Source: Candidatus Ratteibacteria bacterium
GTDB taxonomy: Bacteria; CAIJMQ01
Direction: 5' to 3'
Assembly (NCBI GenBank): GCA_028715665.1
Contig: JAQURI010000001.1
Location: 1 to 63,010, forward strand
Length of the DNA stretch: 63,010 nt
Notes under the pieces: generated by a model
What the model was told of the DNA's origin: nothing
Database searches by the model: none
The model's input: the letters and a program-made list of their open reading frames with translations, nothing else
Part shown: positions 2-53,575 of the stretch, in pieces
Layout: the number at the start of each line of letters is the position of its first letter
Numbering within the stretch: position 1 is the first letter of the stretch
Program-made: the position numbers and the translations under genes

Positions 2-127
2 AACGGTATTACATTATTACAATCAGCAAATACATTATTAATAGATGTGGTTGGGCGGGGTACGCTCCTTCCCGTACTGAAGTACAGGGTATCCGCTACC
101 CCTGCACCCCACGGAGGAACACAATGA
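2..127 (+). CDS. 3' end of an upstream gene (partial, hypothetical)
   Basis: The frame is open from the window edge to TGA at 125-127, which overlaps the next ATG (ATGA). The C-terminus reads ...PAPHGGTQ. Confidence 0.3.
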   Translation, partial: NGITLLQSANTLLIDVVGRGTLLPVLKYRVSATPAPHGGTQ

Positions 128-7463: not shown

Positions 7464-8175
7464 TCGAGTTGATTGGGTAGAGCCTGCCCTTTCATCACTG
7501 CAATACGACAAAGTTATCTTTCTTGGAGATTATTTTGATGATTTTTACGATAATCTTGATGACATAAAGAAGGTTGCAAAATGGCTCAAACAATCTCTGC
7601 CAAAGCCAGACAGAATTCATCTGTGTGGAACGCATGACATGTGGTATAGGTTTCCTAATAATCCATACCTCCAAGCAAGTGGCAATACAATGCAAAAATT
7701 GAATGTAATAAACCAGATTCTTACGGATGATGATTGGAATTTATTGAGATTATACTATTATGAACAGGGTTTCCTGTTAACACATGCGGGAGTGCATTCA
7801 TTCCTTTTCGGAAATAATAATTTGAGTATACAAGAAATGCTTAATCTGATAAAATCTGAAACCGAGAAAGCATTGCAAGATGTCAAGAATGGTAAAATAA
7901 ATCCGTGTCTGGACGCTGGATTTGCCAGAAGAGGCGGGCAGGTAGTTGGAGGCATAACGTGGTTGGATTGGCATGATGAATTTGAACCAGTGCCTCATTT
8001 AAATCAGATAGTTGGACACACAGAGTTAAAGAAACCGGAAAAGAAAATCACAGAGAATAGCGAGAATTATTGCCTAGATACAAAAAATAAGCATATAGGA
8101 ATACTTAAGAATGGGATATTTACATTCGTGGGGTCAAGGGGTAAAAATCGCCCCGTGCCTTCAAGCTGGGGCTGA
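7432..8175 (+). CDS. Metallophosphoesterase (calcineurin-like); last ~15 codons lie in an IS left-end relic
   Basis: Motifs ISDLHNR, GDYFDD, GTHD, THAG and VGHTE. The 3' end (8130-8175) is encoded by the IS200/IS605 LE-like repeat. Confidence 0.8.
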   Translation: MKTIIISDLHNRVDWVEPALSSLQYDKVIFLGDYFDDFYDNLDDIKKVAKWLKQSLPKPDRIHLCGTHDMWYRFPNNPYLQASGNTMQKLNVINQILTDDDWNLLRLYYYEQGFLLTHAGVHSFLFGNNNLSIQEMLNLIKSETEKALQDVKNGKINPCLDAGFARRGGQVVGGITWLDWHDEFEPVPHLNQIVGHTELKKPEKKITENSENYCLDTKNKHIGILKNGIFTFVGSRGKNRPVPSSWG

Positions 8176-8198
8176 ATCATATCCCTTGGAATAGTAAC
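8130..8198 (+). repeat. IS200/IS605 left-end (LE) relic, copy A
   Basis: GGGGTCAAGGGGTAAAAATCGCCCCGTGCCTTCAAGCTGGGGCTGAATCATATCCCTTGGAATAG aligns nearly base for base with 14392-14462. It also aligns with the reverse complement of 20630-20697, the LE of the complete IS. The GC hairpin is retained. Confidence 0.7.
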
Positions 8199-8300: not shown

Positions 8301-8346
8301 CTCAGTTTGGGCATATATCCTTTTCCGGTATGTACGTACAGAAGGC

Positions 8347-8531: not shown

Positions 8532-9610
8532 TTCGCACCGGATTAAATTATCTTGTAGATTATACAGGAAACATGACCACAGACGCAAAACTCAACTATG
8601 TCGTCGAGTCCAGAGACTGGTCAATAAAAGAGGACGGAAAGGAAATTACAAGCCGGATGAATCGTGCAAAGAGCCGGTTCGATTTAAATCCGATTATGAA
8701 AAGCCGAATAACAACAACAGCAAAAGGCTTACGAAACAAAATCATTCATTTCGGCTCAGTGAACACATATTCAATTCCTCACGAATCGAATCGATGTGCA
8801 ATGTCATGGTTCCATATCACTCAGAACGACGAGAACCTGAAAAACATCAAGGAAATAGGAAAACATATCGAGATAATTCATACTACAAACCAGATAACCA
8901 GAAACATTTTCATCGGTATGGGTGCAGACGAAAGCAAAATAGTAACCATCCCCCTCGGCATAGACCTCACCCAGTTCAAACCTATATCCGAAGTAGATGG
9001 ATACTGGGAACTCAGGAACAAGCTAGGGATTCCGGCAGATGTGAAGGTAATAGGTAGCTTTCAAAAGGACTCAAATGGCTGGGATGAAAAAAAAGACAGC
9101 AGCCCAAAGTGGGTTAAGAATCCGGAGGCATTTATTCAAGTCGTAAAAAGGATACACAGGCAATATGATGGAAAAATATATGTGCTTCTTCTGGGGGCGA
9201 ACAGAAGCTATGTAAAAAATCAATTACAAACGCATGGGATACCATTCAAACATATTTATCTAAAAAATCACAAGGACGTAGCTATATACTATAAAGCAAT
9301 AGATATATATTTGGTAACATCTCGTTCTGAAGGTATGCCGAAAGCCATTTTAGAGAGCATGGCATCAGGGATTCCGATTATCAGTACCCCTGTTGGGATA
9401 GCAAAGGAAATAATAGAAGACGGTGAAAATGGTTTCCTCGTAGACATTGATGACACTACAGGAATGACAAATTACGCACTTGATATTTTGAACAGTGATT
9501 CGCTTGCACGCAGATTAAGGGTTGGGGGCATAGAAACAGCTAAAAAATATTCATGGAATATTATAGCGAAAAGATTTTATCATGAAATCTACAAGCAATT
9601 AGAGGAATAG
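8528..9610 (+). CDS. Glycosyltransferase, GT4 family
   Basis: Signature SRSEGMPKAILESMASGIPIISTPVGIAKEIIEDGENGFLV. Confidence 0.85.
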   Translation: MIRTGLNYLVDYTGNMTTDAKLNYVVESRDWSIKEDGKEITSRMNRAKSRFDLNPIMKSRITTTAKGLRNKIIHFGSVNTYSIPHESNRCAMSWFHITQNDENLKNIKEIGKHIEIIHTTNQITRNIFIGMGADESKIVTIPLGIDLTQFKPISEVDGYWELRNKLGIPADVKVIGSFQKDSNGWDEKKDSSPKWVKNPEAFIQVVKRIHRQYDGKIYVLLLGANRSYVKNQLQTHGIPFKHIYLKNHKDVAIYYKAIDIYLVTSRSEGMPKAILESMASGIPIISTPVGIAKEIIEDGENGFLVDIDDTTGMTNYALDILNSDSLARRLRVGGIETAKKYSWNIIAKRFYHEIYKQLEE

Positions 9611-10300: not shown

Positions 10301-10361
10301 ACACGTTCAATTGACCTACACATTCAGGACTAACCAGAACTCTTTTGTACGTACAGCCGCC

Positions 10362-13103: not shown

Positions 13104-14392
13104 TGGGAATAAGAAAGGAAGCACTAAAAACAATCGATAGGATAATAAGTTCAAAAGAATTCACGAGCACACTCGCCCCGGTTCTGCAATATTTACCAAT
13201 CGGGCAAATTAAAAAGAATATCATCAAGAACAAAATAGAATCGATTCAGGGATGCCGGATTGTCTCCTCATCACCGTACAGGGCAATAATCAATACCTCA
13301 AATACCTGTAATTACAGGTGCAAGATATGTGAAATTCATTTCTTGCACAAAAAATATCCGGTACACTATCCAAACGCCATAGACCTTATGGCGTTTAAAA
13401 ACATGAACCAGATTTTAGAGAATTTATATTTACTGGAGTTTTTCGGAAATGTGGGGGAGCCACTAACGAACCCGGATTTTGTGAATATTGTTAGATACAT
13501 CAAGCAAAGGTTTGGAACACGGTTGTTCCTGAACACGAACGGTTCCTTATTGAATTCATCAATGGCAAGTTCATTGATTACGGAAAAATTCGATGAAATA
13601 TTAATATCGTTACATGCAGCATCAGAAGAGACATACTCAAAGTTGATTGGAGGAGATTTTAAACGAGTAGTTGATAATATTGCAACCATATCAGCAATCA
13701 AGAAACAATACCGAGAAAAAAAACCGGAAATCGGGATTGCTTTTGCATTAAATCAAATCAATGAACGGGAAGTCGAAGATATTGTATGTCTGGCATACAA
13801 ACTAAAAGCAAATTATCTTCAAGTTTCTCATTATTATCATGGATTAAACGGAATGGAAAAAGATATATCTTTTATGAATATGAGTCCGTGTGGGAACTAC
13901 AAAGTCAATGCCATATATGATTTTGCCAAGTTCATAGGGCACTTAAAAAGAAAAGAACTAACGGTACTTCCAAAAAAGAGACCGTATTTGGATGAAGAAG
14001 AACCTGAGACCCCAAACTGCTATGCTCCATGGAATACGATAAAGATGGATGGGTGTATAGAATACCAGAACAGCCACTATATTTCCGTTTGTAACAGGAT
14101 AACTTTGTTCAGGTTAGATTATACAGAATTCGACTTCAATGGATTCCACGAGACTCTATGGAATCATCCATATCTCCAGTACATGAGAGCAACGGTAAAT
14201 TCAAAAGAACAGAATCCAATATGCCGGCTCTGCAAGAATCCAGAGAATCATAAATTAAGGAATACAGATAACGTAGAATATAGAAGACGCAGGGATGAAG
14301 CAATGCAGCAATTCTGGGAATTGGCTGAGAGTTACTTGAAAGCCCCGGAAATAAAAGGAATACACATCATTAAACAGAACCCATACACGTAG
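13103..14392 (+). CDS. Radical SAM protein with Cys-rich (SPASM-like) C-terminal region
   Basis: CNYRCKIC (CX3CX2C) near residue 70. The C-terminal part carries extra cysteines: CYAPW..DGC..CNR..CRLC. Confidence 0.85.
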   Translation: MGIRKEALKTIDRIISSKEFTSTLAPVLQYLPIGQIKKNIIKNKIESIQGCRIVSSSPYRAIINTSNTCNYRCKICEIHFLHKKYPVHYPNAIDLMAFKNMNQILENLYLLEFFGNVGEPLTNPDFVNIVRYIKQRFGTRLFLNTNGSLLNSSMASSLITEKFDEILISLHAASEETYSKLIGGDFKRVVDNIATISAIKKQYREKKPEIGIAFALNQINEREVEDIVCLAYKLKANYLQVSHYYHGLNGMEKDISFMNMSPCGNYKVNAIYDFAKFIGHLKRKELTVLPKKRPYLDEEEPETPNCYAPWNTIKMDGCIEYQNSHYISVCNRITLFRLDYTEFDFNGFHETLWNHPYLQYMRATVNSKEQNPICRLCKNPENHKLRNTDNVEYRRRRDEAMQQFWELAESYLKAPEIKGIHIIKQNPYT

Positions 14393-15701
14393 GGGTCAAG
14401 GGGTAGAAATCGCCCCGTGCCTTGAGGCCGGGGCTGAATCGTACCCCTTGGAATAGCAACACCATTGACCGATACCTTTATCGCAATTATGTTTCAAAGG
14501 ACTACAAAGAATGAAAAAAACATACCAGTTCAGGCTATACCCGACGAAAACCCAAGAAGTAACACTGACTAGGACTCTTAGTACGTGCAGGCACCTGTAC
14601 AATAATGCTCTTTCCGAGCGAAGGAAGCAGGCAACTTCAAACACAGTATTGAGACTGCTTCAGGTCTTCCCATGGGGAAAACCGGACTGGGTAACTAAGA
14701 ACGACCAGATGTTAAGCTTGACTGAAACAAAGACCGAGCATCAGTCCGAGGTTTACACACAGGTCTTACAGGATGTAATCAAACGTGTAGACAGGAGTTT
14801 CAAGAATTTCTTTAATGGCTTCGGCTATCCTCGTTTTCATGGCAGGAACCGGTACAACAGTTTCACGTATCCCCAACTGGGCTTCTCACTCAACTCCGGG
14901 AAATTAACCCTTTCAAAAATCGGCGGTATCAAGTTAATGCAGCACCGGAAAATAGAAGGAACAATCAAAACATGCACAATTAAAAAAGACATCGACCGAT
15001 GGTATGTTACTTTTTCCTGTGAAATAGAATCTCCCGTACCGGTTGAAATCAAAACCAGAACCGGGATAGATGTAGGCTTGATAGATTTAATCACATTAAG
15101 CAACGGTGAACAGGTAAAACCCCCGAAATTTCTGCGAGCATCAGAAAGCAAACTGATACAGGAACAGAGACGATTAAACCGTAAAAAGAAGGGTTCAGGA
15201 AAGAGGAACCGGCAAAAGATAATAGTAGCCAAGGTACACAGGAAAATCAGGAACCAGCGAAAAGACTTTGCTCATAAGCTATCGAGACAACTGGTCGATA
15301 GCTATGACCTGATAAAATTCGAAGATTTGCAAATAACGAATATGGTTCAGAACCATCATGTTGCAAAAAGCATAAGTGATGCTGGCTGGTATCAGTTGAT
15401 GAATTTTACGGACTACAAAGCAGGATACGCTGGTAAGTTCGTAGAATTCGTAAATCCATCCGGAACAAGTCAGACCTGTACCTGTGGTTTCGGTGTAGCA
15501 AAAGACCTGTCAGTAAGGATACACCGTTGTCCTTCCTGCGGTCTTGTAATGGGACGAGACCAAGTATCAGCGATATTGATAGAAAACAGGAATTCAGTAT
15601 ATACCGTAGGAACTACGGAAATCAAAGCCCGTCGAGGACTCTCACGAACAAGAGAGCCGATGCAGCGGGACGCCCAAGCCATTCAGGGTCGGGCAGTTCA
15701 C
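14392..15701 (+). mobile_element. tnpA-less IS200/IS605-family unit (LE + internal promoter cassette + tnpB + RE)
   Basis: The LE at 14392-14462 is homologous to the LE of the complete IS, with hairpin GCCCCGTGCC-TTGA-GGCCGGGGC at 14412-14434. An imperfect RE hairpin lies at 15672-15694, and the terminus AGTTCAC (15695-15701) is identical to the RE terminus of the complete IS. Joining the flanks gives a tidy stop-SD-start junction. Confidence 0.75.
14466..14498 (+). promoter_or_regulatory. Conserved promoter-like cassette, copy 3 (inside the tnpB unit)
   Basis: Sequence TGACCGATACCTTTATCGCAATTATGTTTCAAA. The tnpB ATG at 14511 lies 22 nt after the cassette's internal ATG. Confidence 0.6.
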
Positions 15702-15716
15702 GGAGGAGGAACATAA
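14511..15716 (+). CDS. tnpB: TnpB (IS200/IS605 OrfB, RNA-guided RuvC nuclease)
   Basis: KTYQFRLYPT N-terminus; RuvC residues in GIDVGLIDL, KFEDLQI and GRDQVSA; zinc finger CTCG...CPSCG. About 60 percent identical by eye to the second copy. Confidence 0.9.
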   Translation: MKKTYQFRLYPTKTQEVTLTRTLSTCRHLYNNALSERRKQATSNTVLRLLQVFPWGKPDWVTKNDQMLSLTETKTEHQSEVYTQVLQDVIKRVDRSFKNFFNGFGYPRFHGRNRYNSFTYPQLGFSLNSGKLTLSKIGGIKLMQHRKIEGTIKTCTIKKDIDRWYVTFSCEIESPVPVEIKTRTGIDVGLIDLITLSNGEQVKPPKFLRASESKLIQEQRRLNRKKKGSGKRNRQKIIVAKVHRKIRNQRKDFAHKLSRQLVDSYDLIKFEDLQITNMVQNHHVAKSISDAGWYQLMNFTDYKAGYAGKFVEFVNPSGTSQTCTCGFGVAKDLSVRIHRCPSCGLVMGRDQVSAILIENRNSVYTVGTTEIKARRGLSRTREPMQRDAQAIQGRAVHGGGT

Positions 15717-17470: not shown

Positions 17471-18960
17471 AAAGCAAAATCGTTATGATATACCCGCCGA
17501 CAGGCAATATCGTAGACTATAACACCCCAACAGGAACTCTTTATGTGGCAACTTATTTACAGGAAAAGGGCTATGATGTGAGATTCATAGACTGTTCCGT
17601 TGAGGAAAACTGGCACGAAAGAGTATTGGAGGAAGTAAAAGATGCCCTATGTTTTGGCTCTTACTGCATGTCAATTCACATAAAGCATTTAATTCCGTTA
17701 CTAAAAGACGTAAAAAGAATCAATCCAGCGATAAAGACTGTATTGGGGGGAGCACATCCAACCCTGTTCCCGGAGCAGACGGCAGCAGACCCGCTAGTAG
17801 ACTTTGCTGTAATAGGGGAAGGAGAAGAGACAATGCTGGAACTGGTACAAATGATAGAAGCGGGAAAGACTGATTTCTCCGAGGTAAAAGGGATTTCATA
17901 TAAACACAAAGGGAAAGCCCTAACAACCCCTGCCCGTGAATTCATAGACATGGACACATTACCATTCGTGGACTGGAGTTTAATGAGCCAGAAAGCACTC
18001 GACAGCATGAAAACAAAAATAGCAAGAATACAAACAAGCAGAGGCTGTCCTTTTCATTGTAGTTTCTGCATCAACGTCGTCTCAAAAAACGGTAAGATGA
18101 GATACAGGTCTCCGCAGAAAGTCGTTGACGAAATAGAACATATGATAAAGACCTATGGAGTAAAGAGGTTTGGGATAAGAGATGAAGTTTTCCTGTTGAA
18201 CCGCCAGAAAGCAAAAGAAATAGCTCAGGGCATAATTGACAGAGGACTCGAAATAACATGGCTCGCTAATCCGCACGTTAAATTCCTGCGGGAAAGCTGG
18301 ATTGATGATGAATATCTTGATTTACTCAAACGGTCAGGATGCACAAAACTCCAATGTGGAGGAGAATCGGGAAACCAGAGGATATTGGACATGCTTCACA
18401 AGACAGTTACACCAGAAGACACCCTGAATTTTGTGAAACGAACAAAAAAGCACGGAATAATTTCACTCGTAGCATTCATGACAGGACTCCCGACAGAGAC
18501 CAGAGCAGAACAATTGCAAACATTAAAGCTGATATGGGGAATAATGGAGATAGCTCCGGAAACGTTCATTAACGGGGCAGCAATGTTCAGACCATACCCC
18601 GGAGGCGAATTATACGAACAGTGCGTGCGGGATTATAATTTAAAAATGCCAATAACATTCCGGGGCTGGATGGACGTAGAAACAATCGGGGGAACAAAAC
18701 CACCATGGATAAAAGACCTGTATTTCAGTCAGAACCTGTGGATGCATACTACGTTTGCCAGATACGAAAATCTTGGCCAGTTAACAGGTATCTGCAAGAA
18801 AATATATAAAAAATACGGGTTACTTCCAGCAATCGGTGCATATTTATGGGGAAAAGTCTCACATTATCGATTGAAGCATAACTATTATGGATTTCTGATA
18901 GACTTTTGGCTGCTTCAAGCATACTGGCATCAGCGCGGAGAAATTCCGGAATTAAGTTGA
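17467..18960 (+). CDS. B12-binding-domain radical SAM enzyme
   Basis: N-terminal cobalamin-binding-like domain (IVMIYPP...DVRFIDC) followed by SRGCPFHCSFC (CX3CX2C). Confidence 0.88.
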   Translation: MKSKIVMIYPPTGNIVDYNTPTGTLYVATYLQEKGYDVRFIDCSVEENWHERVLEEVKDALCFGSYCMSIHIKHLIPLLKDVKRINPAIKTVLGGAHPTLFPEQTAADPLVDFAVIGEGEETMLELVQMIEAGKTDFSEVKGISYKHKGKALTTPAREFIDMDTLPFVDWSLMSQKALDSMKTKIARIQTSRGCPFHCSFCINVVSKNGKMRYRSPQKVVDEIEHMIKTYGVKRFGIRDEVFLLNRQKAKEIAQGIIDRGLEITWLANPHVKFLRESWIDDEYLDLLKRSGCTKLQCGGESGNQRILDMLHKTVTPEDTLNFVKRTKKHGIISLVAFMTGLPTETRAEQLQTLKLIWGIMEIAPETFINGAAMFRPYPGGELYEQCVRDYNLKMPITFRGWMDVETIGGTKPPWIKDLYFSQNLWMHTTFARYENLGQLTGICKKIYKKYGLLPAIGAYLWGKVSHYRLKHNYYGFLIDFWLLQAYWHQRGEIPELS

Positions 18961-18988
18961 CCGATATATTTATAGTAATTATGTTTCA
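18958..18988 (+). promoter_or_regulatory. Conserved promoter-like cassette, copy 4, cut off by IS insertion
   Basis: TGACCGATATATTTATAGTAATTATGTTTCA is followed directly by the IS right end (GTGAACT on the + strand). Its TGA is the stop codon of the upstream gene. Confidence 0.55.
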
Positions 18989-18993
18989 GTGAA

Positions 18994-20172
18994 CTACCAC
19001 CCTACAAGTAGGGTGGCTTCCTGCTTCATCATGTCTATGCTTAGACCACTCTTGCAGGCTTCAATTCCCGCAGTTCCTGCGGTACATCTATCCAGAACTA
19101 CATTAGCTGCATTGGTATCTCTGTTCTCAACATTCCCACACTGGTTGCATCGAAATACTCTATCCCTCAATGTCATTTTCTGTTTGTTCCCACACACATG
19201 ACAGGTCTGTGATGTTCCCGCAGCTATACAGAGCTTAACCTGCTTCCCAGCTTCTTCCGCTTTGGATGCTGTTAAGGTCTGTAGTTGATACCATCCTGCG
19301 TCCATGATGGATTTCGCAAGATGATGATTCTGAACCATGTTTTTGATTTGTAAGTTCTCGAATGCGATTAAATCGAATCTGGTAACGAGTGTACGTGCAG
19401 TCTTATGAGCGAAATCCTTTCTCTGGTTTCGGATTTTCTGATGTATTTTTGCTACTGTGAGTTTCTGTTTCTTCCTGTTATTCGACCTGAGTTTCTTCTT
19501 TGCCAATCGTCTCTGTTCCTTTGCAAGTTTGTTTTCTGATTGTCTCAGGAACTTCGGGGGCTTGACCATTTCCCCGGTATTTAATGTAAGAAGGTCGGTT
19601 AATCCGACATCTATTCCGACCATTGTAACCACAGGTACTTTCTCAACTGCCTTATTCATCTCAACCGTGAATATCGCATACCATCGGTCAACGTCTCTCT
19701 TGATAGTACATGTTTTGATATTCCCCTTAATGTTCCGATGAAGGATTATCCGTATTGTTCCTATCTTTGAGAGATTGAGTTTTCCAGATTCAATTGTTGC
19801 TCCGCTCTGGGGATACGTGAATGAATCATACCTGTTCATTCCCTTGAATCGGGGAAAACCTGAACCACGAAAGAAGTTATCAATGCTCTTATTGACTCTC
19901 TTTAACACGTTCTGGAGAATCTGTGAATGTACTTCTTTCTGGAAGGAGTCTTTGCACGCTGCAAGCGTATTAGCTTGGTCTTCGTAATATATCCATTCTG
20001 GTTTGCCCCACGGGAATACCTGAAGAGTTTGTCTCAGTCTATTAAGCTCTATGCGTCGTTTCCGTTCTGCAAGAGCGTCGTTATAGAGATGCCTGCACGT
20101 GTTCAGAGTCTTGACCATAGTTACTTCTTGGTTCTTGGTTGGATATATACTGAACACGTAGGCTTTTTTCAT
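18994..20172 (-). CDS. tnpB: TnpB (IS200/IS605 OrfB, RNA-guided RuvC nuclease)
   Basis: RuvC residues in GIDVGLTDL, AFENLQI and NRDTNAANV; zinc finger CHVCG...CNQCG. Confidence 0.9.
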   Translation of the reverse strand: MKKAYVFSIYPTKNQEVTMVKTLNTCRHLYNDALAERKRRIELNRLRQTLQVFPWGKPEWIYYEDQANTLAACKDSFQKEVHSQILQNVLKRVNKSIDNFFRGSGFPRFKGMNRYDSFTYPQSGATIESGKLNLSKIGTIRIILHRNIKGNIKTCTIKRDVDRWYAIFTVEMNKAVEKVPVVTMVGIDVGLTDLLTLNTGEMVKPPKFLRQSENKLAKEQRRLAKKKLRSNNRKKQKLTVAKIHQKIRNQRKDFAHKTARTLVTRFDLIAFENLQIKNMVQNHHLAKSIMDAGWYQLQTLTASKAEEAGKQVKLCIAAGTSQTCHVCGNKQKMTLRDRVFRCNQCGNVENRDTNAANVVLDRCTAGTAGIEACKSGLSIDMMKQEATLLVGW

Positions 20173-20226
20173 TGGGTATTGTATATACCTATAGGTTTAT
20201 ATGTTTTGTGGTATATATAGAGCGAT

Positions 20227-20619
20227 ATGGGAAAAACAAGCTCATGCATCTACAACATCAATTATCACCTTATCTGGTGCCCAAAATATAGAAAACCAAT
20301 ACTTGAAGAACCGAAAGTCAAAACGTTTCTTGAAGACCAGTTACAGACAATAGCTGATGCGAAAGAATATGAAATTCTCGAACTTCAAGTCATGCCAGAC
20401 CATATTCACTTATTCATTTCTGCTAAACCGTTTGAAGCTCCAACTGATATTGTTAAGGTCTTTAAAGGGGTAACAGCATTACGGTTGTTCAAGAAGTTCC
20501 CTGAATTGAAAGAACAATATTGGAGAGGGAAACTATGGTCTCCAAGCTATTATGTCGGAACTGCCGGAACAGTATCAGCGGAAACTATTAAGATGTATAT
20601 TCAAAATCAGAAAGGATGA
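20227..20619 (+). CDS. tnpA: TnpA (IS200-type Y1/HUH transposase)
   Basis: HUH motif in PDHIHLFISAKP and catalytic-Tyr region SPSYYVGTAG. 130 aa. Confidence 0.9.
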   Translation: MGKTSSCIYNINYHLIWCPKYRKPILEEPKVKTFLEDQLQTIADAKEYEILELQVMPDHIHLFISAKPFEAPTDIVKVFKGVTALRLFKKFPELKEQYWRGKLWSPSYYVGTAGTVSAETIKMYIQNQKG

Positions 20620-20713
20620 GGGGCAGTATGTCGCTATGCAGGGGGGTACGATTCATCCACCGGACGAGTCCGGTGGTATTCTCTACCCCTCTACCCCACA
20701 TTATAAATACAAC

Positions 20714-20899
20714 ATGGACGAAGAAATCACAGTAAAAATAGACAAGATTCATAGTCAATCACCCCGTAATAGAAAGTCAAGAGCATGTCTCTTGAAGGAT
20801 ATGGGCAACCAGTTGACAAGGAGACTTAGGAACAAACTATGCAGAAGAATAACACCGGTCGAAAAAACATCGCGGGAAGAACCTACAAGTATAAACTAA
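20714..20899 (+). CDS. Small basic hypothetical protein (candidate first gene of the IS-interrupted operon)
   Basis: This is the first ATG after the IS left end. Removing the IS would place it 24 nt after the internal ATG of cassette copy 4, within the 19-29 nt range of the other copies. Confidence 0.3.
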   Translation: MDEEITVKIDKIHSQSPRNRKSRACLLKDMGNQLTRRLRNKLCRRITPVEKTSREEPTSIN

Positions 20900-21741
20900 C
20901 ACTGCAAAAAGAATCAACCGACACGGAGACAGTTAATATCGTCATGCCAGTAAGGAACTCAATTGGCATAACGGACGTAGCCATTCAATGCATAAAGAAA
21001 TACACAAAGGAGCCTTACGTTCTCTGGATAGTCGATAATGACTCGAATCAGGATATGCTGGAGTATTTATCGAACCTGAGAGATGTAAATATAATTTATA
21101 ATCAATCCGGGATAGGAACGTGGTATTATCCACACTGGTTAATAAAACACGAAGGAAGTTTTGCAAATGCAATAGCTCTTGAACTGGCAGCGCAAATCGT
21201 CAAAGGAAAATACATGTTCGTAATGCATAACGACGCATTGCCAGTATCAGCAGACTGGCTAACGCACCTAAAATCAAAGCTCGATAATAATACGAAAATT
21301 GCCGGGGTAAGTCAGGACAAGACAAGAGTTAAAGCCGTCCATACTTCCGGATTTTTATTTGACTTTGAACTTTACGAAAAATTAGATTTATCATTCATGC
21401 ACAATTTACCCGCATACGATGTAGGAGACTACATTACAACAGGGCTACTGGGAGAAGGATATAAAAAGTATGTTTGCATGAACACATTCAATAATCCGGC
21501 AACGATTAACCTGATAACTTACGGTTCATACCCGGATTTCATTAAAAACTATTCATTCGACCGTAGCTTCAACGACGACGGAGAACTGATATTCATGCAT
21601 CTTGGGCGCGGCACGACCCGGACAAAGGACGAGCATCCAAAAGAAGGGTATATGAAAAGAAGTGAATGGGTCAATGGAATAAAGAAACATTTTTTGCGAG
21701 GGCAATATGCCAAAAGTCAGTGTGGTAATGTCACTCTATAA
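20839..21741 (+). CDS. Glycosyltransferase, GT2-like
   Basis: VNIVMPVRNS...LWIVDNDSN (beta1/DxD-like) at the N-terminus. The start is uncertain (alternative ATG at 20944). Confidence 0.6.
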   Translation: MQKNNTGRKNIAGRTYKYKLTLQKESTDTETVNIVMPVRNSIGITDVAIQCIKKYTKEPYVLWIVDNDSNQDMLEYLSNLRDVNIIYNQSGIGTWYYPHWLIKHEGSFANAIALELAAQIVKGKYMFVMHNDALPVSADWLTHLKSKLDNNTKIAGVSQDKTRVKAVHTSGFLFDFELYEKLDLSFMHNLPAYDVGDYITTGLLGEGYKKYVCMNTFNNPATINLITYGSYPDFIKNYSFDRSFNDDGELIFMHLGRGTTRTKDEHPKEGYMKRSEWVNGIKKHFLRGQYAKSQCGNVTL

Positions 21742-22630
21742 CGGTAAAAAATATCTAATGGAAGCCATCAATAGCATCCTGAATCAAACATTCAGGGATT
21801 TTGAATTTATTATCATTGACGACGGCTCGGATGAATCCGTACATAACATGCTTTCAACTTTAGCCGACGAACGCATTAAACTTATTACAAACGAAAAAAA
21901 CATTGGACTTACTGCAAGCCTCAACAAGGGCTTATTCAAAGCTTCAGGCGAGTTTATAGCCCGTCAGGATGCAGACGATATGTCAGAACCGTCAAGGTTC
22001 TATGAACAGGTATCTTATCTCGACAAGCACCCGGAAATAGGGGTTGTAGGGACGAGCACGACTATAATCAACGAGAACGGGGAGAAGGTAGATTACTGGG
22101 ACGCAGTTCAAAATCCAATGGGATTACTAAAGACCGGCAATAGATTAACCCACGGGTCGGTAATGCTAAGACGAACTGTAATGGACGATATCGGAAAATA
22201 CGATTATCATTTTAAATATGCCCAAGACTATGAATATTGGTTACGGGTATCGAAAAAACATCAAATTCGAAACATACCAGTACGGTTATACCAATCACGA
22301 TTTCATAATAGAATGTTAAGCACAACAAAGATAAAAGAGCAGGCACAATATGTTATTTGTGCACAAAGGATGCATAAAACCGGAGAAGAATTCTCATATG
22401 AACTGGATATGACAAAGCCTGAAAAAATCAGATATCATACTATGCTTGCATATAGCTATATCCAAGCAGATAAAATGAGTGAAGCCGTACAAGAATTTAA
22501 AGAAATATTTAAATTAAACCCATTCAATTCAATGAACTTAATACGGATAATATCATATCTTTTTAGAGGACGTGATGGAATAATAAAAATTCAAAATAAT
22601 TATAGAAAATTACGATGCGCTTTCTATTGA
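21707..22630 (+). CDS. Glycosyltransferase, GT2 family
   Basis: VSVVMSLYNGKKYLMEAINSILNQTFRDFEFIIIDDGSDE and RQDADD motifs. Confidence 0.85.
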   Translation: MPKVSVVMSLYNGKKYLMEAINSILNQTFRDFEFIIIDDGSDESVHNMLSTLADERIKLITNEKNIGLTASLNKGLFKASGEFIARQDADDMSEPSRFYEQVSYLDKHPEIGVVGTSTTIINENGEKVDYWDAVQNPMGLLKTGNRLTHGSVMLRRTVMDDIGKYDYHFKYAQDYEYWLRVSKKHQIRNIPVRLYQSRFHNRMLSTTKIKEQAQYVICAQRMHKTGEEFSYELDMTKPEKIRYHTMLAYSYIQADKMSEAVQEFKEIFKLNPFNSMNLIRIISYLFRGRDGIIKIQNNYRKLRCAFY

Positions 22631-22661
22631 ATTAGAGCATGGGGCAGGGGGTAATTGACAA

Positions 22662-22748
22662 CGCCATGGGTGAGATTCGAACTCACGTAAGCCTTTCGAC
22701 CGTAATGGGGTAGCAACCCATCGCAATAAACCGCTATGCGACCACGGC
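22662..22748 (-). tRNA. tRNA-Ser (anticodon GCU)
   Basis: The reverse complement folds as a cloverleaf: acceptor GCCGTGG/CCATGGC, anticodon stem ATGGG/CCCAT with loop TTGCTAC, a long variable arm, and T-arm GTGAG-TTCGAAT-CTCAC. No CCA is encoded. Confidence 0.8.
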
Positions 22749-22751
22749 AAA

Positions 22752-22838
22752 CGCCAACGACAGGATTCGAACCTGTGATGCCCTTACGAACACAGCGGTT
22801 TTCAAGACCGCCGCCATACCAGACTTGACGACGTTGGC
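22752..22838 (-). tRNA. tRNA-Ser (anticodon UGA)
   Basis: Acceptor GCCAACG/CGTTGGC, anticodon stem GCGGT/ACCGC with loop CTTGAAA, a long variable arm, and T-arm ACAGG-TTCGAAT-CCTGT. Confidence 0.8.
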
Positions 22839-22848
22839 AATTTTGAAA

Positions 22849-22932
22849 TGGGTATAGACGGATTCGAACCGTCGGTAGGACTAACCAACTGGTTCCTAAG
22901 ACCAGTGCCTTTGACCGCTTGGCTATATACCC
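22849..22932 (-). tRNA. tRNA-Leu (anticodon UAG)
   Basis: Acceptor GGGTATA/TATACCC, anticodon stem CTGGT/ACCAG with loop CTTAGGA, a long variable arm, and T-arm GACGG-TTCGAAT-CCGTC. Confidence 0.8.
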
Positions 22933-22934
22933 AA

Positions 22935-23017
22935 TGCGTATATTCGGATTCGAACCGAAGATTGTCCTACGACCCAGAGCTTAAATCCGGTGCTTTTGAC
23001 CTCTCAGCCATATACGC
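22935..23017 (-). tRNA. tRNA-Leu (anticodon UAA)
   Basis: Acceptor GCGTATA/TATACGC, anticodon stem CCGGA/TCTGG (one G-U pair) with loop TTTAAGC, a long variable arm, and T-arm TTCGG-TTCGAAT-CCGAA. Confidence 0.78.
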
Positions 23018-23019
23018 TA

Positions 23020-23102
23020 TGCGAGTAATGTGATTTGAACACATGATTCCACTAAGGAACAGATTTTGAATCTGTTGTATTTGACCGCTCTACCATACTC
23101 GC
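23020..23102 (-). tRNA. tRNA-Leu (anticodon CAA)
   Basis: Acceptor GCGAGTA/TACTCGC, anticodon stem ACAGA/TCTGT with loop TTCAAAA, a long variable arm, and T-arm ATGTG-TTCAAAT-CACAT. Confidence 0.75.
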
Positions 23103-26674: not shown

Positions 26675-27600
26675 TCTCTCCTATTATGTTCTTTATACCA
26701 ATCAATTGTTTTTTTCATTCCATCATATAATGTAGTTTTAGCTTTCCAGTGAAGTAGTTTCCTAGCATTATATGTATCAGCACAGGCATAACACATTTCA
26801 TTATTACGATATGGTACCGCACCCCAGACAGGATTGATTTTACTATTAAGTAGATTCAAAATGAGATTGATAGTAGTCCGAAGGGTCGGTGCATGTCCAG
26901 TTCCAATATCAAATATTTCATGTGCTTTCGTATAAGGGGGACTTGAAATCAACGACATATAAGCATCCACTATATCATCAACATAAATATAGTCCCATTT
27001 TTGATATCCCGGCGACGTTTTCAGTTCAGTCGTCTCACCTTTAAGAGCGGACTGGATTATAAATGGAATAAATTTACGTGCATTATCAAATTCTCCGTAA
27101 GCAGGAAATTGGCGAAACGTCACACACTGCATTCCCCGTTCGCCATAATAATCACAAAGAAGTTCGCCCTGTAATTTAGTAGCAGCATACAAGCTAATCG
27201 GATTAATTTTATGTACCTTGGATTTTCCATCATATACGAATGCAGTGCTTGCATTCACAAACAGTTTGATATCATTTTTAAGTGATTCATCAAGAAGAAG
27301 GGTTAAACCACGAACATTCGTATCATAGAGAGGCATTATATCAGAAAAGCAATGCTCAACAACATAATACGCAGCAAGATGGTAAACAATCTCCGGCTTA
27401 AATTTTCGGACGGCATCAGCAACTTTTACATTATCAGCTAAATCAGCAATAAAAACATTAAGCCGGCCATAAATATCTTCAATTCGTTCAATATTAGACC
27501 CAGCACGCTGAATAATCCCAACATCATGGTCATCAGAGACAAGTCTTCGGGTTAAATGAGACCCGATAAACCCCGTCGCTCCGGTAACAAGTATTCTCGT
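26671..27600 (-). CDS. NAD-dependent epimerase/dehydratase (SDR) lacking a canonical start codon
   Basis: The Rossmann motif (T)RILVTGATGFIGSHL is encoded in frame upstream of the first ATG (27336), and YAATK is the catalytic motif. The frame opens right after an in-frame TAG (27604-27606). ACG at 27598-27600 sits 7 nt after GGAGGA, where ATG is expected. Confidence 0.65.
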   Translation of the reverse strand, partial: TRILVTGATGFIGSHLTRRLVSDDHDVGIIQRAGSNIERIEDIYGRLNVFIADLADNVKVADAVRKFKPEIVYHLAAYYVVEHCFSDIMPLYDTNVRGLTLLLDESLKNDIKLFVNASTAFVYDGKSKVHKINPISLYAATKLQGELLCDYYGERGMQCVTFRQFPAYGEFDNARKFIPFIIQSALKGETTELKTSPGYQKWDYIYVDDIVDAYMSLISSPPYTKAHEIFDIGTGHAPTLRTTINLILNLLNSKINPVWGAVPYRNNEMCYACADTYNARKLLHWKAKTTLYDGMKKTIDWYKEHNRRD

Positions 27601-27603
27601 AAA

Positions 27604-28008
27604 CTACTCCTCCTGAAGGGTTGGAGCATCCGATTTCATAGCTTCAACTTCTGCAAGAAAATCCATTTGAATATCATAAATACCATCACTATGAGCCGAT
27701 ATATCTCTAACTGAATCAAGTCCAAGTTTTTTATGATTGTTTAAAAAAGACCACGTAACCATTTCATTCTTTCTGGATATTACTACTGCTTTTCTAATAT
27801 TTCCTTTAACTGCGAAAGTTCTTCCTCGAACTAAAGCATCATAATAACATTCTTTGCATACAGGCATACCAGCCCATACACCAGTTTTTGTGATGTCAAC
27901 TTTTTTACCTTTATACATTGGAATTGACCATTTCAATGGGGTACATTCGTTGCATATTGCACAGTTGGTGTATGCTTCGGTCAAATCGATGACAATCTCT
28001 TCATTCAT
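27604..28008 (-). CDS. Hypothetical zinc-ribbon protein
   Basis: The MNEEIV start overlaps the upstream GT2 stop by 8 nt. Contains CAICNEC...CKECYY. Confidence 0.45.
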   Translation of the reverse strand: MNEEIVIDLTEAYTNCAICNECTPLKWSIPMYKGKKVDITKTGVWAGMPVCKECYYDALVRGRTFAVKGNIRKAVVISRKNEMVTWSFLNNHKKLGLDSVRDISAHSDGIYDIQMDFLAEVEAMKSDAPTLQEE

Positions 28009-38193: not shown

Positions 38194-39756
38194 ATGGCAA
38201 AGAAACCACCAAACAGGGGAGGGTGGTTCGAATGCCCTGATGAATCTGGTAAAGCACCAGAGCACAAAGCAGCAGCAAATAAAAATAATATGATGGGAAT
38301 ACTAAGGGTACCTATGAAAAGGTTAAAACCCGAAGGATATAAGGCACACAAAATAATTATAAACGAACTGCAAGAAGTGACGATTCAGATAGGCCATTTC
38401 CCCACCTCACAAGAACTCAGGCGTATAAATAAAGAAGGTCTTATTGCCAGAATATTTAGGCACGGTGGAATTAACCATTTCAGAACCGAATTGGGTCAGA
38501 AACTCATCAAGAAATCAAAAGACTATTGGTCAGACGAAATAATCGTTTCTGAATTAAAACCAATAATTATTAAAATCGCACATTTTCCCACAAGGGATGA
38601 GTTAATAAACCTAAACAGGGGTGATTTAGCTGGGGCAATAGCCACTAAAGGCGGATACAATAAATTCCAGAATTTATTGGGGTATGAAGCACAACGCAAA
38701 CCAAAGGACTACTGGGCAGATGAAACAGTAATAGCTGAATTAGAACCAATAATAGAACTTTTCGGATATTTTCCAACAATGGAAGAACTTAGAGCGAAGG
38801 AAAGGAGAGATTTAGCTTCTCAAATAGCTATACATGGTGGTGTTAATAAATTCAAAAAATTAATGGGATACCATATAACGAAAAAAGATAATGGTAGTTG
38901 GACTGACGAAATAATAGTTTATGAATTAGAACAAATAACAAAAACGCTGGGACATTTTCCAACAAGGAAAGAATTAATTAGTATAGGGAGGATAGATTTA
39001 ACTGGCGCAATAACACGACACGGCGGAGCAAACAAATTTAGAGGATTATGTGAGAAACCAATTATCCAAAGGACTAAGGGGTATTGGACGGATGCCACGA
39101 TAATTTCAGGAATAAGACTGATTGCAATGAAACTAAATCATTTTCCAATGGTTGCTGAATTGAAAAACGAGGGGAGGGGTGACCTGCAAGCGCAGATAAC
39201 AAATCATGGAGGTGCAAATAAATTTAGAATGTTAATGGGATATCCAATATCCCAATACGATGAATATATATCTGAATTAATGACTTATGTTGGAAGGAGA
39301 GGTAAAAGGTCGGAAGGCATCATCAAACAGATATTAACCGGTTGGGCGCATCTACATAACCTTCCAGACCCAACATACAACAATAGGCTGGCACAAGGAA
39401 ATGTTATCGAATTTATATGTAATGTTGGGAGAAATATAGGAATAGACGTTACAAACACAGAAAGCAAAAAGGCAGTATCTGATAAATGGAGAAAAAAAAA
39501 GTATTACAAATATTTGGATGAACTCTGGATAGTTGTATTCAGTGACTCTTTTTCAGATACAGATTATGACCGATGGAACAAAGAAAGTCCAGAAAACGTT
39601 AAGGTCATGACTATACAAGATTTTTTAGAAGAATTAGATTATCCAATAGACGAAGCAACAAAATGTAAGATAGATAGATATTGCAAATGCACATTCCGCA
39701 CCAAGGACGAATTCATAAAACGACATTTAAATAGGAGTATAGATGATTATGTATAG
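38194..39756 (+). CDS. Protein with five homing-endonuclease-associated (HNH_repeat-like) repeats and a C-terminal PD-(D/E)xK-like nuclease domain
   Basis: Five ~60-aa repeats of the form YW(S/T)DE.I..EL..I...(G/A)HFPT..EL.....DL...I...GG.NKF..L.GY. The C-terminus has IEF...IGIDVTNTESKK (D...ExK). Confidence 0.7.
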   Translation: MAKKPPNRGGWFECPDESGKAPEHKAAANKNNMMGILRVPMKRLKPEGYKAHKIIINELQEVTIQIGHFPTSQELRRINKEGLIARIFRHGGINHFRTELGQKLIKKSKDYWSDEIIVSELKPIIIKIAHFPTRDELINLNRGDLAGAIATKGGYNKFQNLLGYEAQRKPKDYWADETVIAELEPIIELFGYFPTMEELRAKERRDLASQIAIHGGVNKFKKLMGYHITKKDNGSWTDEIIVYELEQITKTLGHFPTRKELISIGRIDLTGAITRHGGANKFRGLCEKPIIQRTKGYWTDATIISGIRLIAMKLNHFPMVAELKNEGRGDLQAQITNHGGANKFRMLMGYPISQYDEYISELMTYVGRRGKRSEGIIKQILTGWAHLHNLPDPTYNNRLAQGNVIEFICNVGRNIGIDVTNTESKKAVSDKWRKKKYYKYLDELWIVVFSDSFSDTDYDRWNKESPENVKVMTIQDFLEELDYPIDEATKCKIDRYCKCTFRTKDEFIKRHLNRSIDDYV

Positions 39757-52918: not shown

Positions 52919-53575
52919 ATGAACAGCCAAGCACTCCACCCGGAACATTGTTCACACGGAGCATTATTACAGCGTGGCTGGACTGAAGCCGGGATAAAAC
53001 GATTCTTAAAAGCCCCGGACAAGACAGCTCCAAACCCTCATTACAGGCGGGGTGCGGATATGAAACTATATTTACTTACACGGGTAGAATCAATGGAAAA
53101 AAGTGAAGAATACCTGATTTTCTGTAAAAAAAATAAGACACGAAAGCAAGGGGCAATAAGTGCGGTCAGGACAAAGAAAGAAAAGCTTCTCAGGGATGTA
53201 GCAGGATGGGAGATTCACATTACCCGCCAGAACCTCACAGATGTCCTACAGGACGCAATCTCCTCATATAACGAGCGAAGGGCTGACCGGAGCGAAGATG
53301 GGTTCATATACGAACCTGCATCGTTAAATTCAGATAAAGAGTTCCTTTACAGGATAACGGTCAACTTCTTACGTCATCGATGCAGCCCGTATGAACGAAA
53401 GCTCACTGAAACGGCAGGTAAAGTAGGAACAAAAGAAGCATATATCCTGCTGAACCAGAACATATTCAAGAGGATATCCCATATCTTTCCTGAGCTTCAG
53501 GCAGAATGCGATAGGCAGTTAGAAGAAAAAATAAGACAATATCTCGAAGAATCCAACAATCTGCACGTACATTAG
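52919..53575 (+). CDS. Hypothetical protein
   Basis: 218-aa ORF. The segment ITVNFLRHRCSPYERKL faintly recalls DUF2293-type proteins (weak). Confidence 0.55.
   Translation: MNSQALHPEHCSHGALLQRGWTEAGIKRFLKAPDKTAPNPHYRRGADMKLYLLTRVESMEKSEEYLIFCKKNKTRKQGAISAVRTKKEKLLRDVAGWEIHITRQNLTDVLQDAISSYNERRADRSEDGFIYEPASLNSDKEFLYRITVNFLRHRCSPYERKLTETAGKVGTKEAYILLNQNIFKRISHIFPELQAECDRQLEEKIRQYLEESNNLHVH

What the first reader, a model, noticed from the sequence alone, without database searches (positions are those of the whole stretch)
18958..20899. Complete IS200/IS605 inserted exactly inside one cassette, so its predicted TnpB guide is complementary to the cassette
The IS (18989-20697, - orientation) abuts cassette copy 4 right after ...AATTATGTTTCA. 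Removing the IS restores the cassette plus ACATTATAAATACAAC plus the ATG at 20714, a spacing of 24 nt that falls within the 19-29 nt range of intact copies. The insertion therefore appears to have uncoupled a small ORF and the two GT2 genes (20839, 21707) from their promoter.

In TnpB systems the omega-RNA guide is transcribed from the DNA flanking the right end. Here that flank (- strand) is TGAAACATAATTACTATAAA, the reverse complement of the cassette core. It differs by only 1-2 nt from the other cassette copies. This raises two possibilities: cassette-directed homing, or interference by this TnpB at the other cassettes.
Basis: partly seen in the sequence, partly recalled or inferred. Interest (0 to 1): 0.75.

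Follow-up and report, generated by a model that had tools for sequence, protein, structure and literature searches.

The report
IS605-type transposon splitting an archaeal promoter
An ordinary, intact IS200/IS605 transposon (tnpA + tnpB) sits between a repeated archaeal promoter motif and the gene it drove; its guide RNA matches that promoter only because TnpB guides always copy the DNA next to the transposon, and the other promoter copies lack the motif TnpB needs to cut them.

Summary
A complete IS200/IS605 element lies on the minus strand directly after the 30-nt motif GACCGATACCTTTATCGTAATTATGTTTCA (copy at 18959-18988). It carries a Y1 tnpA, a tnpB with an intact RuvC triad, hairpins at both ends, and a conserved structured 3' RNA.

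They place the left end at 20702, not 20697. The target and TAM is TTTAT (20707-20703, minus strand).

An IS-free orthologous locus in a related genome has radical-SAM gene, cassette, 13 nt, small ORF, GT2, GT2. It aligns across the junction once 18989-20702 is removed. The restored cassette-to-ATG spacing is 11 nt, the modal value across 32 cassette copies.

The cassette is a lineage-wide promoter of a Methanoperedens-like archaeon, with leaderless-type geometry.

The guide-cassette match is a passive result of where the IS landed. None of the other seven copies in the window has TTTAT, or a one-mismatch variant, at the TAM position. None of 31 other cassettes carries an IS, and none of six other family insertion sites is next to a cassette. 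Cassette-directed homing or interference is therefore not supported.

This is a new member of a known kind, of low interest. Side observation: a second tnpB (14511-15716) sits directly behind another cassette copy.

The parts
18959..18988 (+). Promoter cassette copy 4 (GACCGATATATTTATAGTAATTATGTTTCA). It is the RE-flanking DNA of the IS.
   Evidence: 8 copies in the window, all on the plus strand. 32 copies counting related contigs, with the ORF start 10-15 nt downstream in 22 of 29. The orthologous copy in L038 is already divergent in the same positions.
18989..20702 (-). IS200/IS605-family element, IS605-type with divergent tnpA and tnpB, 1714 bp. The top strand is the window minus strand.
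   Evidence: Boundaries come from 8 independent related insertions and from the IS-free ortholog. Identical in three sequencing runs.
18969..18988 (-). Predicted omega-RNA guide template (TGAAACATAATTACTATAAA; the first 16 nt are 18988..18973).
   Evidence: This is the RE flank read directly from the sequence. That the guide equals the RE flank is the family rule (PMC8612924; bioRxiv 10.1101/2023.03.14.532601). It was not measured here.
18989..18993 (-). Transposon-encoded motif (TEM) TTCAC, the last 5 nt of the RE. It occupies the TAM position at the filled site.
   Evidence: Invariant AGTTCAC at the end of all 9 aligned elements. The same TEM, TTCAC, is reported for S. islandicus IS605-type TnpB7, where it abolishes cleavage (PMC11043419).
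18989..19092 (-). 3' part of the omega-RNA scaffold, including the RE hairpin (18997-19016). It overlaps the tnpB 3' end.
   Evidence: RNAalifold on 9 elements gives 25 pairs, 13 with compensatory changes. The covariance model scores it at 127 bits. The DNA hairpin folds. No Rfam family matches.
18994..20172 (-). tnpB, 392 aa. RuvC D188/E272/D352 and the CxxC...CxxC zinc ribbon are present.
   Evidence: Pfam. ISDra2 TnpB structures 8bf8/8h1j at 7e-40. Motif positions.
20227..20619 (+). tnpA, a Y1 HUH transposase of 130 aa (HUH at H59/H61, Tyr124). It is co-directional with the downstream host genes.
   Evidence: Pfam Y1_Tnp 4e-41. PDB 2ec2, 2xm3 and 2a6m. Motif positions.
20620..20702 (-). Left end. 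It starts AATGTGGGGTAGAGGGGTAGAGAATA. The hairpin is at 20657-20676, 26 nt from the cleavage site. The guide tetranucleotide AATA is at 20680-20677.
   Evidence: Alignment to two other LE copies in the window. Fold. Related elements.
20703..20707 (-). TAM and TnpA target TTTAT. This is host DNA.
   Evidence: TTTAT in 7 of 8 independent insertions. The eighth (L034) has TTTAG together with a matching change in the base 5' of the LE hairpin, AATC versus AATA/AAGA. It aligns to host leader bases in the IS-free ortholog.
20714..20899 (+). Small ORF (61 aa) that the cassette drove before insertion. Only its first ~16 codons resemble the 66-aa ortholog; the similarity then continues in another frame.
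   Evidence: No Pfam hit. Not on record as a called gene.
20839..22630 (+). Two GT2 glycosyltransferase genes downstream. The first is probably shorter than its ORF, since NCBI aa and homologs cover only ~92% of the ORF.
   Evidence: Pfam. Homolog coverage.
14392..15716 (+). Second, tnpA-less tnpB unit: an LE-like repeat (14392-14460), cassette copy 3 (14467-14496), tnpB2 (14511-15716, 55% identical to TnpB1), and an RE-like end ...GGGCAGTTCAC| at 15701.
   Evidence: Covariance model 71.5 bits.

Best explanation
A single, apparently intact IS200/IS605 element inserted by the usual TnpA single-strand 'peel-and-paste' route. It landed 3' of a TTTAT target that happened to lie, on the minus strand, in the 11-nt leader between a leaderless-type archaeal promoter cassette and its start codon. 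This family inserts without duplication and reads its omega-RNA guide from the DNA beyond the right end. The guide is therefore automatically the reverse complement of the cassette core.

Its expected job is the standard one. After TnpA excises the element, the rejoined donor site reads TTTAT + TGAAACATAATTAC.... TnpB/omega-RNA cuts that site, so recombination restores the IS. At the filled site the TEM TTCAC sits where the TAM should be, which prevents self-cleavage. The other cassette copies are protected because they lack the TAM.

For the host, the TATA box is now 1.7 kb from the small ORF and the two GT2 genes. The cassette should now initiate about 11 nt inside the RE, antisense to the omega-RNA and tnpB. 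Any residual expression of the downstream genes would come from read-through out of tnpA.

Shown here: element anatomy, boundaries, TAM, the empty-site ortholog, and the lack of a TAM at other copies. Inferred: omega-RNA expression and guide length, TnpB activity, and the transcriptional consequences.
For: - Domains and catalytic residues of TnpA and TnpB are present.
- End hairpins follow IS608-like geometry: 26 nt at the LE and 8 nt at the RE, against 19 and 10 in IS608 (PMC3201880).
- RE and LE boundaries and the TTTAT flank come from 8 independent insertions.
- The last TAM base covaries with the base 5' of the LE hairpin in L034.
- An IS-free ortholog has cassette, 13 nt, then ATG, and aligns colinearly across the junction.
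- The restored spacing is 11 nt, the mode of 32 copies.
- The tnpB 3' end carries a conserved RNA structure with covariation.
- No TAM, or TAM within one mismatch, lies beside any other cassette. No TTTAT plus a guide-like site (<=4 mismatches in 16 nt) occurs anywhere else in the window.
- Family mechanism: PMC8612924; 10.1101/2023.03.14.532601.
- An archaeal IS605-type TnpB uses TAM TTTAA and TEM TTCAC (PMC11043419).
Against: - There are no RNA data, so the omega-RNA 5' end, guide length and expression are unverified.
- No empty allele or excision junction was found in the same population. Current mobility is therefore unproven.
- The TAM is inferred from flanks, not measured.
- Archaeal TnpB can tolerate changes at TAM positions -5 and -4. 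Copy 28955 (CCTTT) keeps -3T and -1T with a perfect 14-nt match, so weak activity there is not strictly excluded.
Confidence: 0.85

Rival explanations
1. The TnpB1/omega-RNA complex acts in trans on the other cassette copies. It might cleave them at low level, leading to gene conversion or 'homing' of the IS between cassettes. Alternatively it might bind without cutting and so dampen the cassette regulon, in the manner of TldR repressors.
For: - Three other copies (14467, 28955, 51232) match the first 12 guide positions perfectly, and two of them differ only at position 15.
- An archaeal TnpB tolerates substitutions at TAM -5 and -4 and partly at -2. Copy 28955 has CCTTT, which keeps -3T and -1T.
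- TnpB-derived RNA-guided repressors exist (bioRxiv 10.64898/2026.09.22.753285, listed).
Against: - No copy has TTTAT or a one-mismatch variant at the TAM position.
- Weak TAMs make TnpB less tolerant of guide mismatches (abstract of PMC11043419).
- TnpB1 keeps an intact RuvC triad, so it is not a TldR.
- Homology for repair exists only on the cassette side (30 nt).
- 0 of 31 other cassettes carries an IS or an RE remnant.
- 0 of 6 other family insertion sites is cassette-adjacent.
Confidence: 0.05
2. The insertion is kept because it serves the host as a reversible off-switch for the small ORF and two GT2 genes, giving surface-glycan variation. The scarless excision of IS200/IS605 elements would make this possible.
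For: - The IS separates a leaderless-type promoter from its genes inside an N-glycosylation and pilin island containing AglB, UDPG-DH, GT1/GT2 genes and archaeal pilins.
- Excision would restore the promoter-ATG unit exactly.
- The small ORF looks degraded relative to its ortholog.
Against: - All three runs show only the filled allele, and no empty site was found.
- TnpB is expected to counteract excision.
- This is one locus and one lineage, so selection cannot be separated from a neutral or mildly deleterious insertion.
Confidence: 0.08
3. The arrangement is an assembly artefact or an ancestral gene order rather than an insertion.
For: Two of the three public assemblies break inside the IS, at 19017/19246 and 20671/20678.
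Against: A contig from another run spans both junctions at 100% identity. The related genome has the same gene order without the IS. The breaks fall in the hairpins and the conserved omega-RNA region, as expected for repeats.
Confidence: 0.02

Closest known systems
Sulfolobus islandicus IS605-type TnpB7 elements (PMC11043419)
   Same: Archaeal. T-rich 5-nt TAM (TTTAA there, TTTAT here). Identical transposon-ending motif TTCAC in front of the native guide. The guide is the RE flank.
   Different: The last TAM base differs. The host is Methanoperedens-like. Nothing has been measured here.
IS608 (H. pylori) and ISDra2 (D. radiodurans), the reference IS200/IS605 elements
   Same: Y1 HUH TnpA plus TnpB. 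Subterminal hairpins. Cleavage sites lie 5' of the LE hairpin and 3' of the RE hairpin. Insertion occurs 3' of a short target with no duplication. There is a 4-nt guide 5' of each hairpin (PMC3201880). TnpB1 aligns to ISDra2 TnpB structures at 7e-40.
   Different: tnpA is divergent from tnpB (IS605-like order). The target is TTTAT rather than TTAC or TTGAT. The LE cleavage site is 26 nt from the hairpin rather than 19.
Geobacillus ISGst TnpB/IscB 'donor-joint' retention system (bioRxiv 10.1101/2023.03.14.532601)
   Same: The predicted function is the same. TAM plus RE flank is re-created on excision and is the natural target. TnpA and TnpB share the TAM.
   Different: Here the RE flank is a multi-copy promoter motif, so near-cognate sites exist elsewhere in the genome. 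They lack the TAM.
TldR, TnpB-like nuclease-dead repressors
   Same: A TnpB-family guide complementary to promoter DNA.
   Different: TnpB1 has an intact RuvC D-E-D. It sits in a complete mobile IS with tnpA. Its guide is the unmodified insertion flank. It is not a member.

Membership tests
IS200/IS605 insertion sequence | Y1 (HUH) transposase TnpA with HUH motif and catalytic Tyr | tested here: met
   Pfam Y1_Tnp 4e-41. Aligns to 2ec2, 2xm3 and 2a6m. HIH at residues 59-61 and Tyr124.
IS200/IS605 insertion sequence | Subterminal hairpins at both ends, and no terminal inverted repeats | tested here: met
   LE hairpin 20657-20676 and RE hairpin 18997-19016. The foot sequence CCACC...GGTGG is shared by both ends.
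IS200/IS605 insertion sequence | Insertion 3' of a fixed 4-5 nt target, without target-site duplication | tested here: met
   TTTAT flanks the LE in 7 of 8 independent insertions and TTTAG in the eighth. The IS-free ortholog aligns across the junction with no duplicated bases.
IS200/IS605 insertion sequence | Cleavage sites recognised by a tetranucleotide 5' of each hairpin foot | tested here: inconclusive
   AATA (LE) against TTAT, and GAAG (RE) against TCAC, follow the IS608 pattern. The IS608 pairs TTAC/AAAG are confirmed, but the RE guide GAAT is from memory. L034 shows a covarying change, TTTAG with AATC. That is one covariation event only.
IS200/IS605 insertion sequence | Transposition or excision activity | not testable with these tools
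   No empty allele or circle junction was found.
TnpB/omega-RNA (OMEGA) RNA-guided nuclease | TnpB with RuvC D-E-D and a zinc ribbon | tested here: met
   D188, E272, D352, CHVC and CNQC. Pfam OrfB_IS605 and Cas12f1-like_TNB.
TnpB/omega-RNA (OMEGA) RNA-guided nuclease | Structured omega-RNA overlapping the tnpB 3' end and ending at the RE boundary | tested here: met
   25 conserved pairs, 13 with compensatory changes, and an invariant AGTTCAC terminus. Covariance model at 127 bits. Expression was not tested, and no Rfam family matches.
TnpB/omega-RNA (OMEGA) RNA-guided nuclease | Guide is the RE-flanking 16-20 nt, and the target needs the TAM on its 5' side | not testable with these tools
   Family rule (PMC8612924). 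Confirming it needs small-RNA-seq and a TAM-depletion assay.
TldR (nuclease-dead TnpB repressor) | Inactivated RuvC site; not in a mobile IS | tested here: not met
   The catalytic triad is intact, and tnpA and both ends are present.
   0 of 31 other cassettes carries an IS or RE. 0 of 6 other insertion sites is beside a cassette. No TAM at the 7 other window copies.

The most novel reading that the evidence does not exclude
The insertion flank is a 30-nt promoter motif present in many copies, so this TnpB/omega-RNA naturally carries a guide with perfect 12-14-nt seed matches to several other promoters of the same surface-glycosylation and pilin regulon. If the enzyme accepts weak TAMs such as CCTTT, it could nick, cut or merely occupy those promoters. 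That would be an RNA-guided regulator, or a driver of gene conversion between cassettes, caught at the moment of origin. It would be a mobile-element precursor of TldR-type repressors.
Probability: 0.04. Interest if true: 0.7.

Novelty: new member of a known kind. Interest (0 to 1): 0.2.

Why it matters
Mostly as a caution and a clean example. Complementarity between a TnpB guide and nearby DNA is built into every IS200/IS605 insertion and is not by itself evidence of targeting.

The locus is a natural case where a guide has many near-cognate genomic sites and only the TAM tells them apart. That could make it a convenient test of TAM stringency in an archaeal TnpB.

It also documents an IS knocking a leaderless-type promoter away from glycosyltransferase genes in a Methanoperedens-like surface-glycan island. 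This is a plausible source of strain-level surface variation.

Tried and rejected
- Rfam at gathering threshold on the whole window, and at E<=1 on 18800-20900: no omega-RNA family.
- Phage database blastn with the IS: no match.
- Cassette pattern in viral contigs: none. The 26-mer in GTDB genomes: none. The 20-mer gave one Methanoperedens MAG and one chance Fructilactobacillus hit.
- Empty-site search with the downstream 26-mer in JGI metagenomes: none.
- Exact look-up of the 61-aa ORF: not on record.
- Exact look-ups of the flanking radical-SAM and GT2 proteins returned only filled or broken contigs.
- Contig breaks near the IS ends were considered as evidence of an empty allele. I rejected this because they fall in the hairpins and the conserved omega-RNA region, not at the boundaries.
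- A Borg or virus origin was considered because the genes are co-directional. I rejected it: GC is ~39-41%, there are no perfect tandem repeats, and the content is cellular N-glycosylation and pilin genes.
- The idea that the cassette is a mobile unit bounded by IS ends: no RE-like sequence follows any cassette.
- A possible fourth LE at 10270 matches only over its first ~20 nt and may be chance.
- tblastn of TnpB2 against plasmids gave only relatives below 50% identity, so the LE-cassette-tnpB2 arrangement could not be checked elsewhere.
- The TnpB2 guide (GGAGGAGGAACATAATGATA) has no second match in the window.
Full report
**What is there.** The region holds two divergent genes. The ORF at 18994-20172 (minus strand, 392 aa) is a TnpB, with Pfam OrfB_IS605 2e-28, Cas12f1-like_TNB 4e-18 and HTH_OrfB_IS605 2e-13. 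The ORF at 20227-20619 (plus strand, 130 aa) is a Y1 transposase, Y1_Tnp 4e-41. TnpB aligns over its whole length to the solved ISDra2 TnpB structures (7e-40). It keeps the RuvC residues D188, E272 and D352 and both CxxC pairs. TnpA aligns to IS200/IS605 transposase structures and keeps the HUH motif and Tyr124. Perfect hairpins lie near both ends: CCACCCTAC-AAGT-AGGGTGG at 18997-19016 and CCACCGGA-CGAG-TCCGGTGG at 20657-20676. The short distance from the RE hairpin to the end (8 nt) and the long one at the LE (26 nt) make the window minus strand the active 'top' strand. This matches the IS608 layout of 10 and 19 nt (PMC3201880).

**The cassette.** The 30-nt motif GACCGATACCTTTATCGTAATTATGTTTCA occurs eight times in the window, always on the plus strand, at 8348, 10363, 14467, 18959, 28955, 51232, 53579 and 55936. 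Its 20-nt core gives 7 matches at three or fewer mismatches against 0.02 expected. A 20-mer scan found it in ten contigs of two JGI metagenomes, nine of them from sample 3300020171. Several of those contigs are syntenic with the window at 70-80% identity. It also occurs in a Candidatus Methanoperedens MAG. Across 32 copies, an ORF of at least 40 codons starts 10-15 nt after the motif in 22 of the 29 copies that have such an ORF within 60 nt, and the mode is 11 nt. This puts TTTAT about 28-31 nt before the ATG, the geometry expected of an archaeal TATA box driving a leaderless or near-leaderless mRNA (established knowledge, not measured here). The window encodes AglB, UDP-glucose dehydrogenase, GT1 and GT2 enzymes, radical-SAM proteins and archaeal type IV pilins. 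The closest TnpB relatives that carry a name are from Methanoperedens. The NCBI label 'Ratteibacteria' on this contig is therefore probably a binning error.

**Boundaries.** I fetched seven contigs (six different insertion sites) that carry TnpB relatives at 72-89% identity in unrelated contexts. On the RE side all share ...GGTAGTTCAC and diverge immediately after it: TGAAAC here, and TCATAC, AAGATG, TTTCAT, AACCCA, GAATTC and AAGCTA elsewhere. On the LE side the conserved block does not stop at GGGGTAGAGGGG. It is preceded by AAYGT (CACGT in L034, AACATAG in L027) and then by TTTAT in seven of eight insertions, with no conservation further out. The eighth (L034) has TTTAG, and the base just 5' of its LE hairpin is C instead of A (AATC versus AATA/AAGA). 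That is the change expected if this tetranucleotide reads the last target base, as G_L does in IS608. It is a single covariation event, so it is supportive only. I place the cleavage site after TTTAT. The element is then 18989-20702 (1714 bp), and the target and TAM is TTTAT at 20707-20703 on the minus strand.

**The empty site.** No empty allele turned up in the same population. A 78%-identical ortholog of the downstream GT2 led to contig k141_476712 (L038). It has the same gene order with no IS: B12-radical-SAM gene, cassette variant AACCGATACTTTTATATTCTTTATGTTTCA, 13 nt, ATG of a 66-aa ORF, GT2, GT2. The window with 18989-20702 removed aligns colinearly through the junction, TTTCAATAAATACAA against TTTCAA-AAACACAA. 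The TTTAT bases align to host leader bases, so they are target DNA and not part of the IS. The restored spacing is 11 nt, the modal value. A contig from a different run (SRR22315508) spans both junctions at 100% identity. This rules out a chimera.

**The guide.** The last ~104 nt before the RE end are much more conserved than the protein requires. They fold into three helices, with 13 of 25 pairs showing compensatory changes across nine elements, and end in an invariant AGTTCAC. A covariance model built from that alignment finds two strong matches in the window, this element (127 bits) and the second tnpB (71.5 bits), plus one weak, probably chance match at 27599-27667 (18.8 bits). This is what an omega-RNA scaffold looks like, although no Rfam family matches and expression is untested. 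By the family rule (PMC8612924; 10.1101/2023.03.14.532601) the guide is the next 16-20 nt, TGAAACATAATTACTATAAA, the reverse complement of cassette positions 30 to 11. This is true of any IS200/IS605 insertion. The guide copies the RE flank so that the donor joint re-formed on excision (TAM plus RE flank) is cut and the IS is restored by recombination.

**Do the other cassettes become targets?** Three copies (14467, 28955, 51232) match guide positions 1-12 perfectly. Over the full 20 nt the seven other copies have 3, 4, 2, 1, 1, 3 and 2 mismatches, in window order. At the five TAM positions they carry GCTTT, TACGA, TCCTT, CCTTT, GTGTT, TAAGT and ACCTT. None is TTTAT or within one mismatch of it. 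No TTTAT followed by a guide-like site (<=4 mismatches in 16 nt) exists anywhere else in the window.

The best experimental comparison is the S. islandicus IS605-type TnpB7. It has TAM TTTAA and the same TEM, TTCAC. Position -3 is the most critical and -1 the second most, -5 and -4 are relaxed, and the TEM abolishes cleavage (PMC11043419). On that scale only copy 28955 (CCTTT) keeps -3T and -1T, and it still differs at three TAM positions and one guide position. The same paper reports that weak TAMs make TnpB more specific.

The ecological test is also negative. None of the other 31 cassettes has an IS, an RE or an omega-RNA-like sequence next to it. None of the six other insertion sites of this IS family lies beside a cassette. 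TTTAT occurs 262 times on the minus strand of the window. One hit next to a cassette needs no special explanation, particularly since intergenic space in this tightly packed cluster is largely where the cassettes are.

**Consequences for the host (inferred).** The TATA box is now 1.7 kb from the small ORF and the GT2 genes. It should instead start transcription about 11 nt inside the RE, antisense to the omega-RNA and tnpB. tnpA points the same way as the downstream genes, and I see no oligo-T run between its stop codon and 20714. Read-through expression is therefore possible, and 'uncoupled' may be only partly right. The 61-aa ORF resembles its 66-aa ortholog only over the first ~16 codons, after which similarity continues briefly in another frame. 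This could be decay or fast evolution. The three substitutions that distinguish cassette copy 4 from the consensus pre-date the insertion, because the ortholog is divergent at the same positions.

**Verdict.** It is a new, unnamed member of the IS605 group in a Methanoperedens-like archaeon, inserted between a promoter and its gene. The proposed special relationship between guide and cassette is not supported.

**Side observations.**
- A second tnpB (14511-15716, 55% identical, catalytic residues present, no tnpA) starts 14 nt after cassette copy 3. An LE-like repeat (14392-14460) precedes it, and it ends in a degenerate RE (...GGGCAGTTCAC at 15701) that abuts the RBS of the next gene.
- Similar LE-like ~62-70-nt repeats occur alone at 8130-8198 and 51-112. 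In related contigs some lie directly before an SD-ATG or before a cassette.
- I could not decide whether that cassette travels inside the second element or whether these repeats are independent REP-like units.

Noticed in passing
window 14392-15716 (+): A second TnpB gene (401 aa, 55% identical to TnpB1, RuvC residues present, CxC instead of the first CxxC) has no tnpA. It starts 14 nt after cassette copy 3, as an ordinary regulon gene would. An LE-like repeat lies just upstream of that cassette. The RE hairpin is degenerate, and the ORF reads through the RE end (15701) into the RBS of the next gene (ATG at 15716). It may be an immobilised or host-wired TnpB.
   Followed up: partly
window 51-112 (-), 8130-8198 (+), 14392-14460 (+); L014 36-120 and 8208-8278; L020 11775-11853 and ~9080-9144; L017 ~470-539: A family of ~62-70-nt structured repeats is homologous to the IS left end (nhmmer E 1e-17 to 1e-20 within the window) but is not attached to any tnpB. 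One subfamily is 92% conserved across genomes and is always followed directly by GGAGGAACACA-ATG of a different gene. Others sit directly upstream of cassettes. They could be REP- or PATE-like derivatives of IS200/IS605 ends.
   Followed up: partly
window 8348, 10363, 14467, 18959, 28955, 51232, 53579, 55936 (+); 24 more copies in L014-L025 and L038: A hyper-conserved 30-nt promoter motif; 24 of its 30 columns are at least 87% conserved over 32 copies. The start codon lies a modal 11 nt downstream. Four window copies also have a TGTACGTACA-type palindrome 6-7 nt upstream (8331-8341, 10347-10357, 53562-53572, 55919-55929). This looks like a dedicated regulon signal in a Methanoperedens-like lineage. 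Cassette 8348 and its neighbouring gene are absent from the syntenic contig L023.
   Followed up: partly
whole window: NCBI labels the 63,010-bp contig 'Candidatus Ratteibacteria bacterium'. Its content is archaeal (AglB, archaeal type IV pilins), and its relatives and the cassette are in Methanoperedens-like contigs. This is probably a mis-binned contig.
   Followed up: partly
window 20714-20899 (+): The small ORF downstream of the IS resembles its 66-aa ortholog (L038 1865-2065) only in the first ~16 codons. Similarity then continues (VIES) in the +1 frame before a stop. This could be a frameshifted remnant.
   Followed up: partly
window 19017-19246 and 20671-20678: Public Logan assemblies of two runs break at these points, inside the IS. 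The missing stretch is the conserved omega-RNA and tnpB 3' region. This suggests several related IS copies in the same metagenome.
   Followed up: no
window 22661-23102 (-): A cluster of five tRNA genes (Ser-GCT, Ser-TGA, Leu-TAG, Leu-TAA, Leu-CAA) lies on the strand opposite to most genes, right after the GT2 pair.
   Followed up: no
L025 3900-6380 (Methanoperedens MnB_21 scaffold90): A nest of mobile-element parts. It holds a tnpB 3' half with an omega-RNA match (100 bits), an HNH-endonuclease ORF, an IS1-type LE in reverse orientation, and another LE-like repeat. These are followed by a cassette-like TATA region and a 219-aa ORF whose N-terminus looks TnpB-like, though it has no Pfam hit.
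   Followed up: no
window 38527-38973 and 57300-59500 (+): Three 75-nt repeats spaced 186 nt apart lie inside ORF 38194-39756, which has a weak Pfam HNH_repeat hit. A run of paralogous small genes shows 79-85% identical segments at 57542-57848 and 59005-59295.
   Followed up: no
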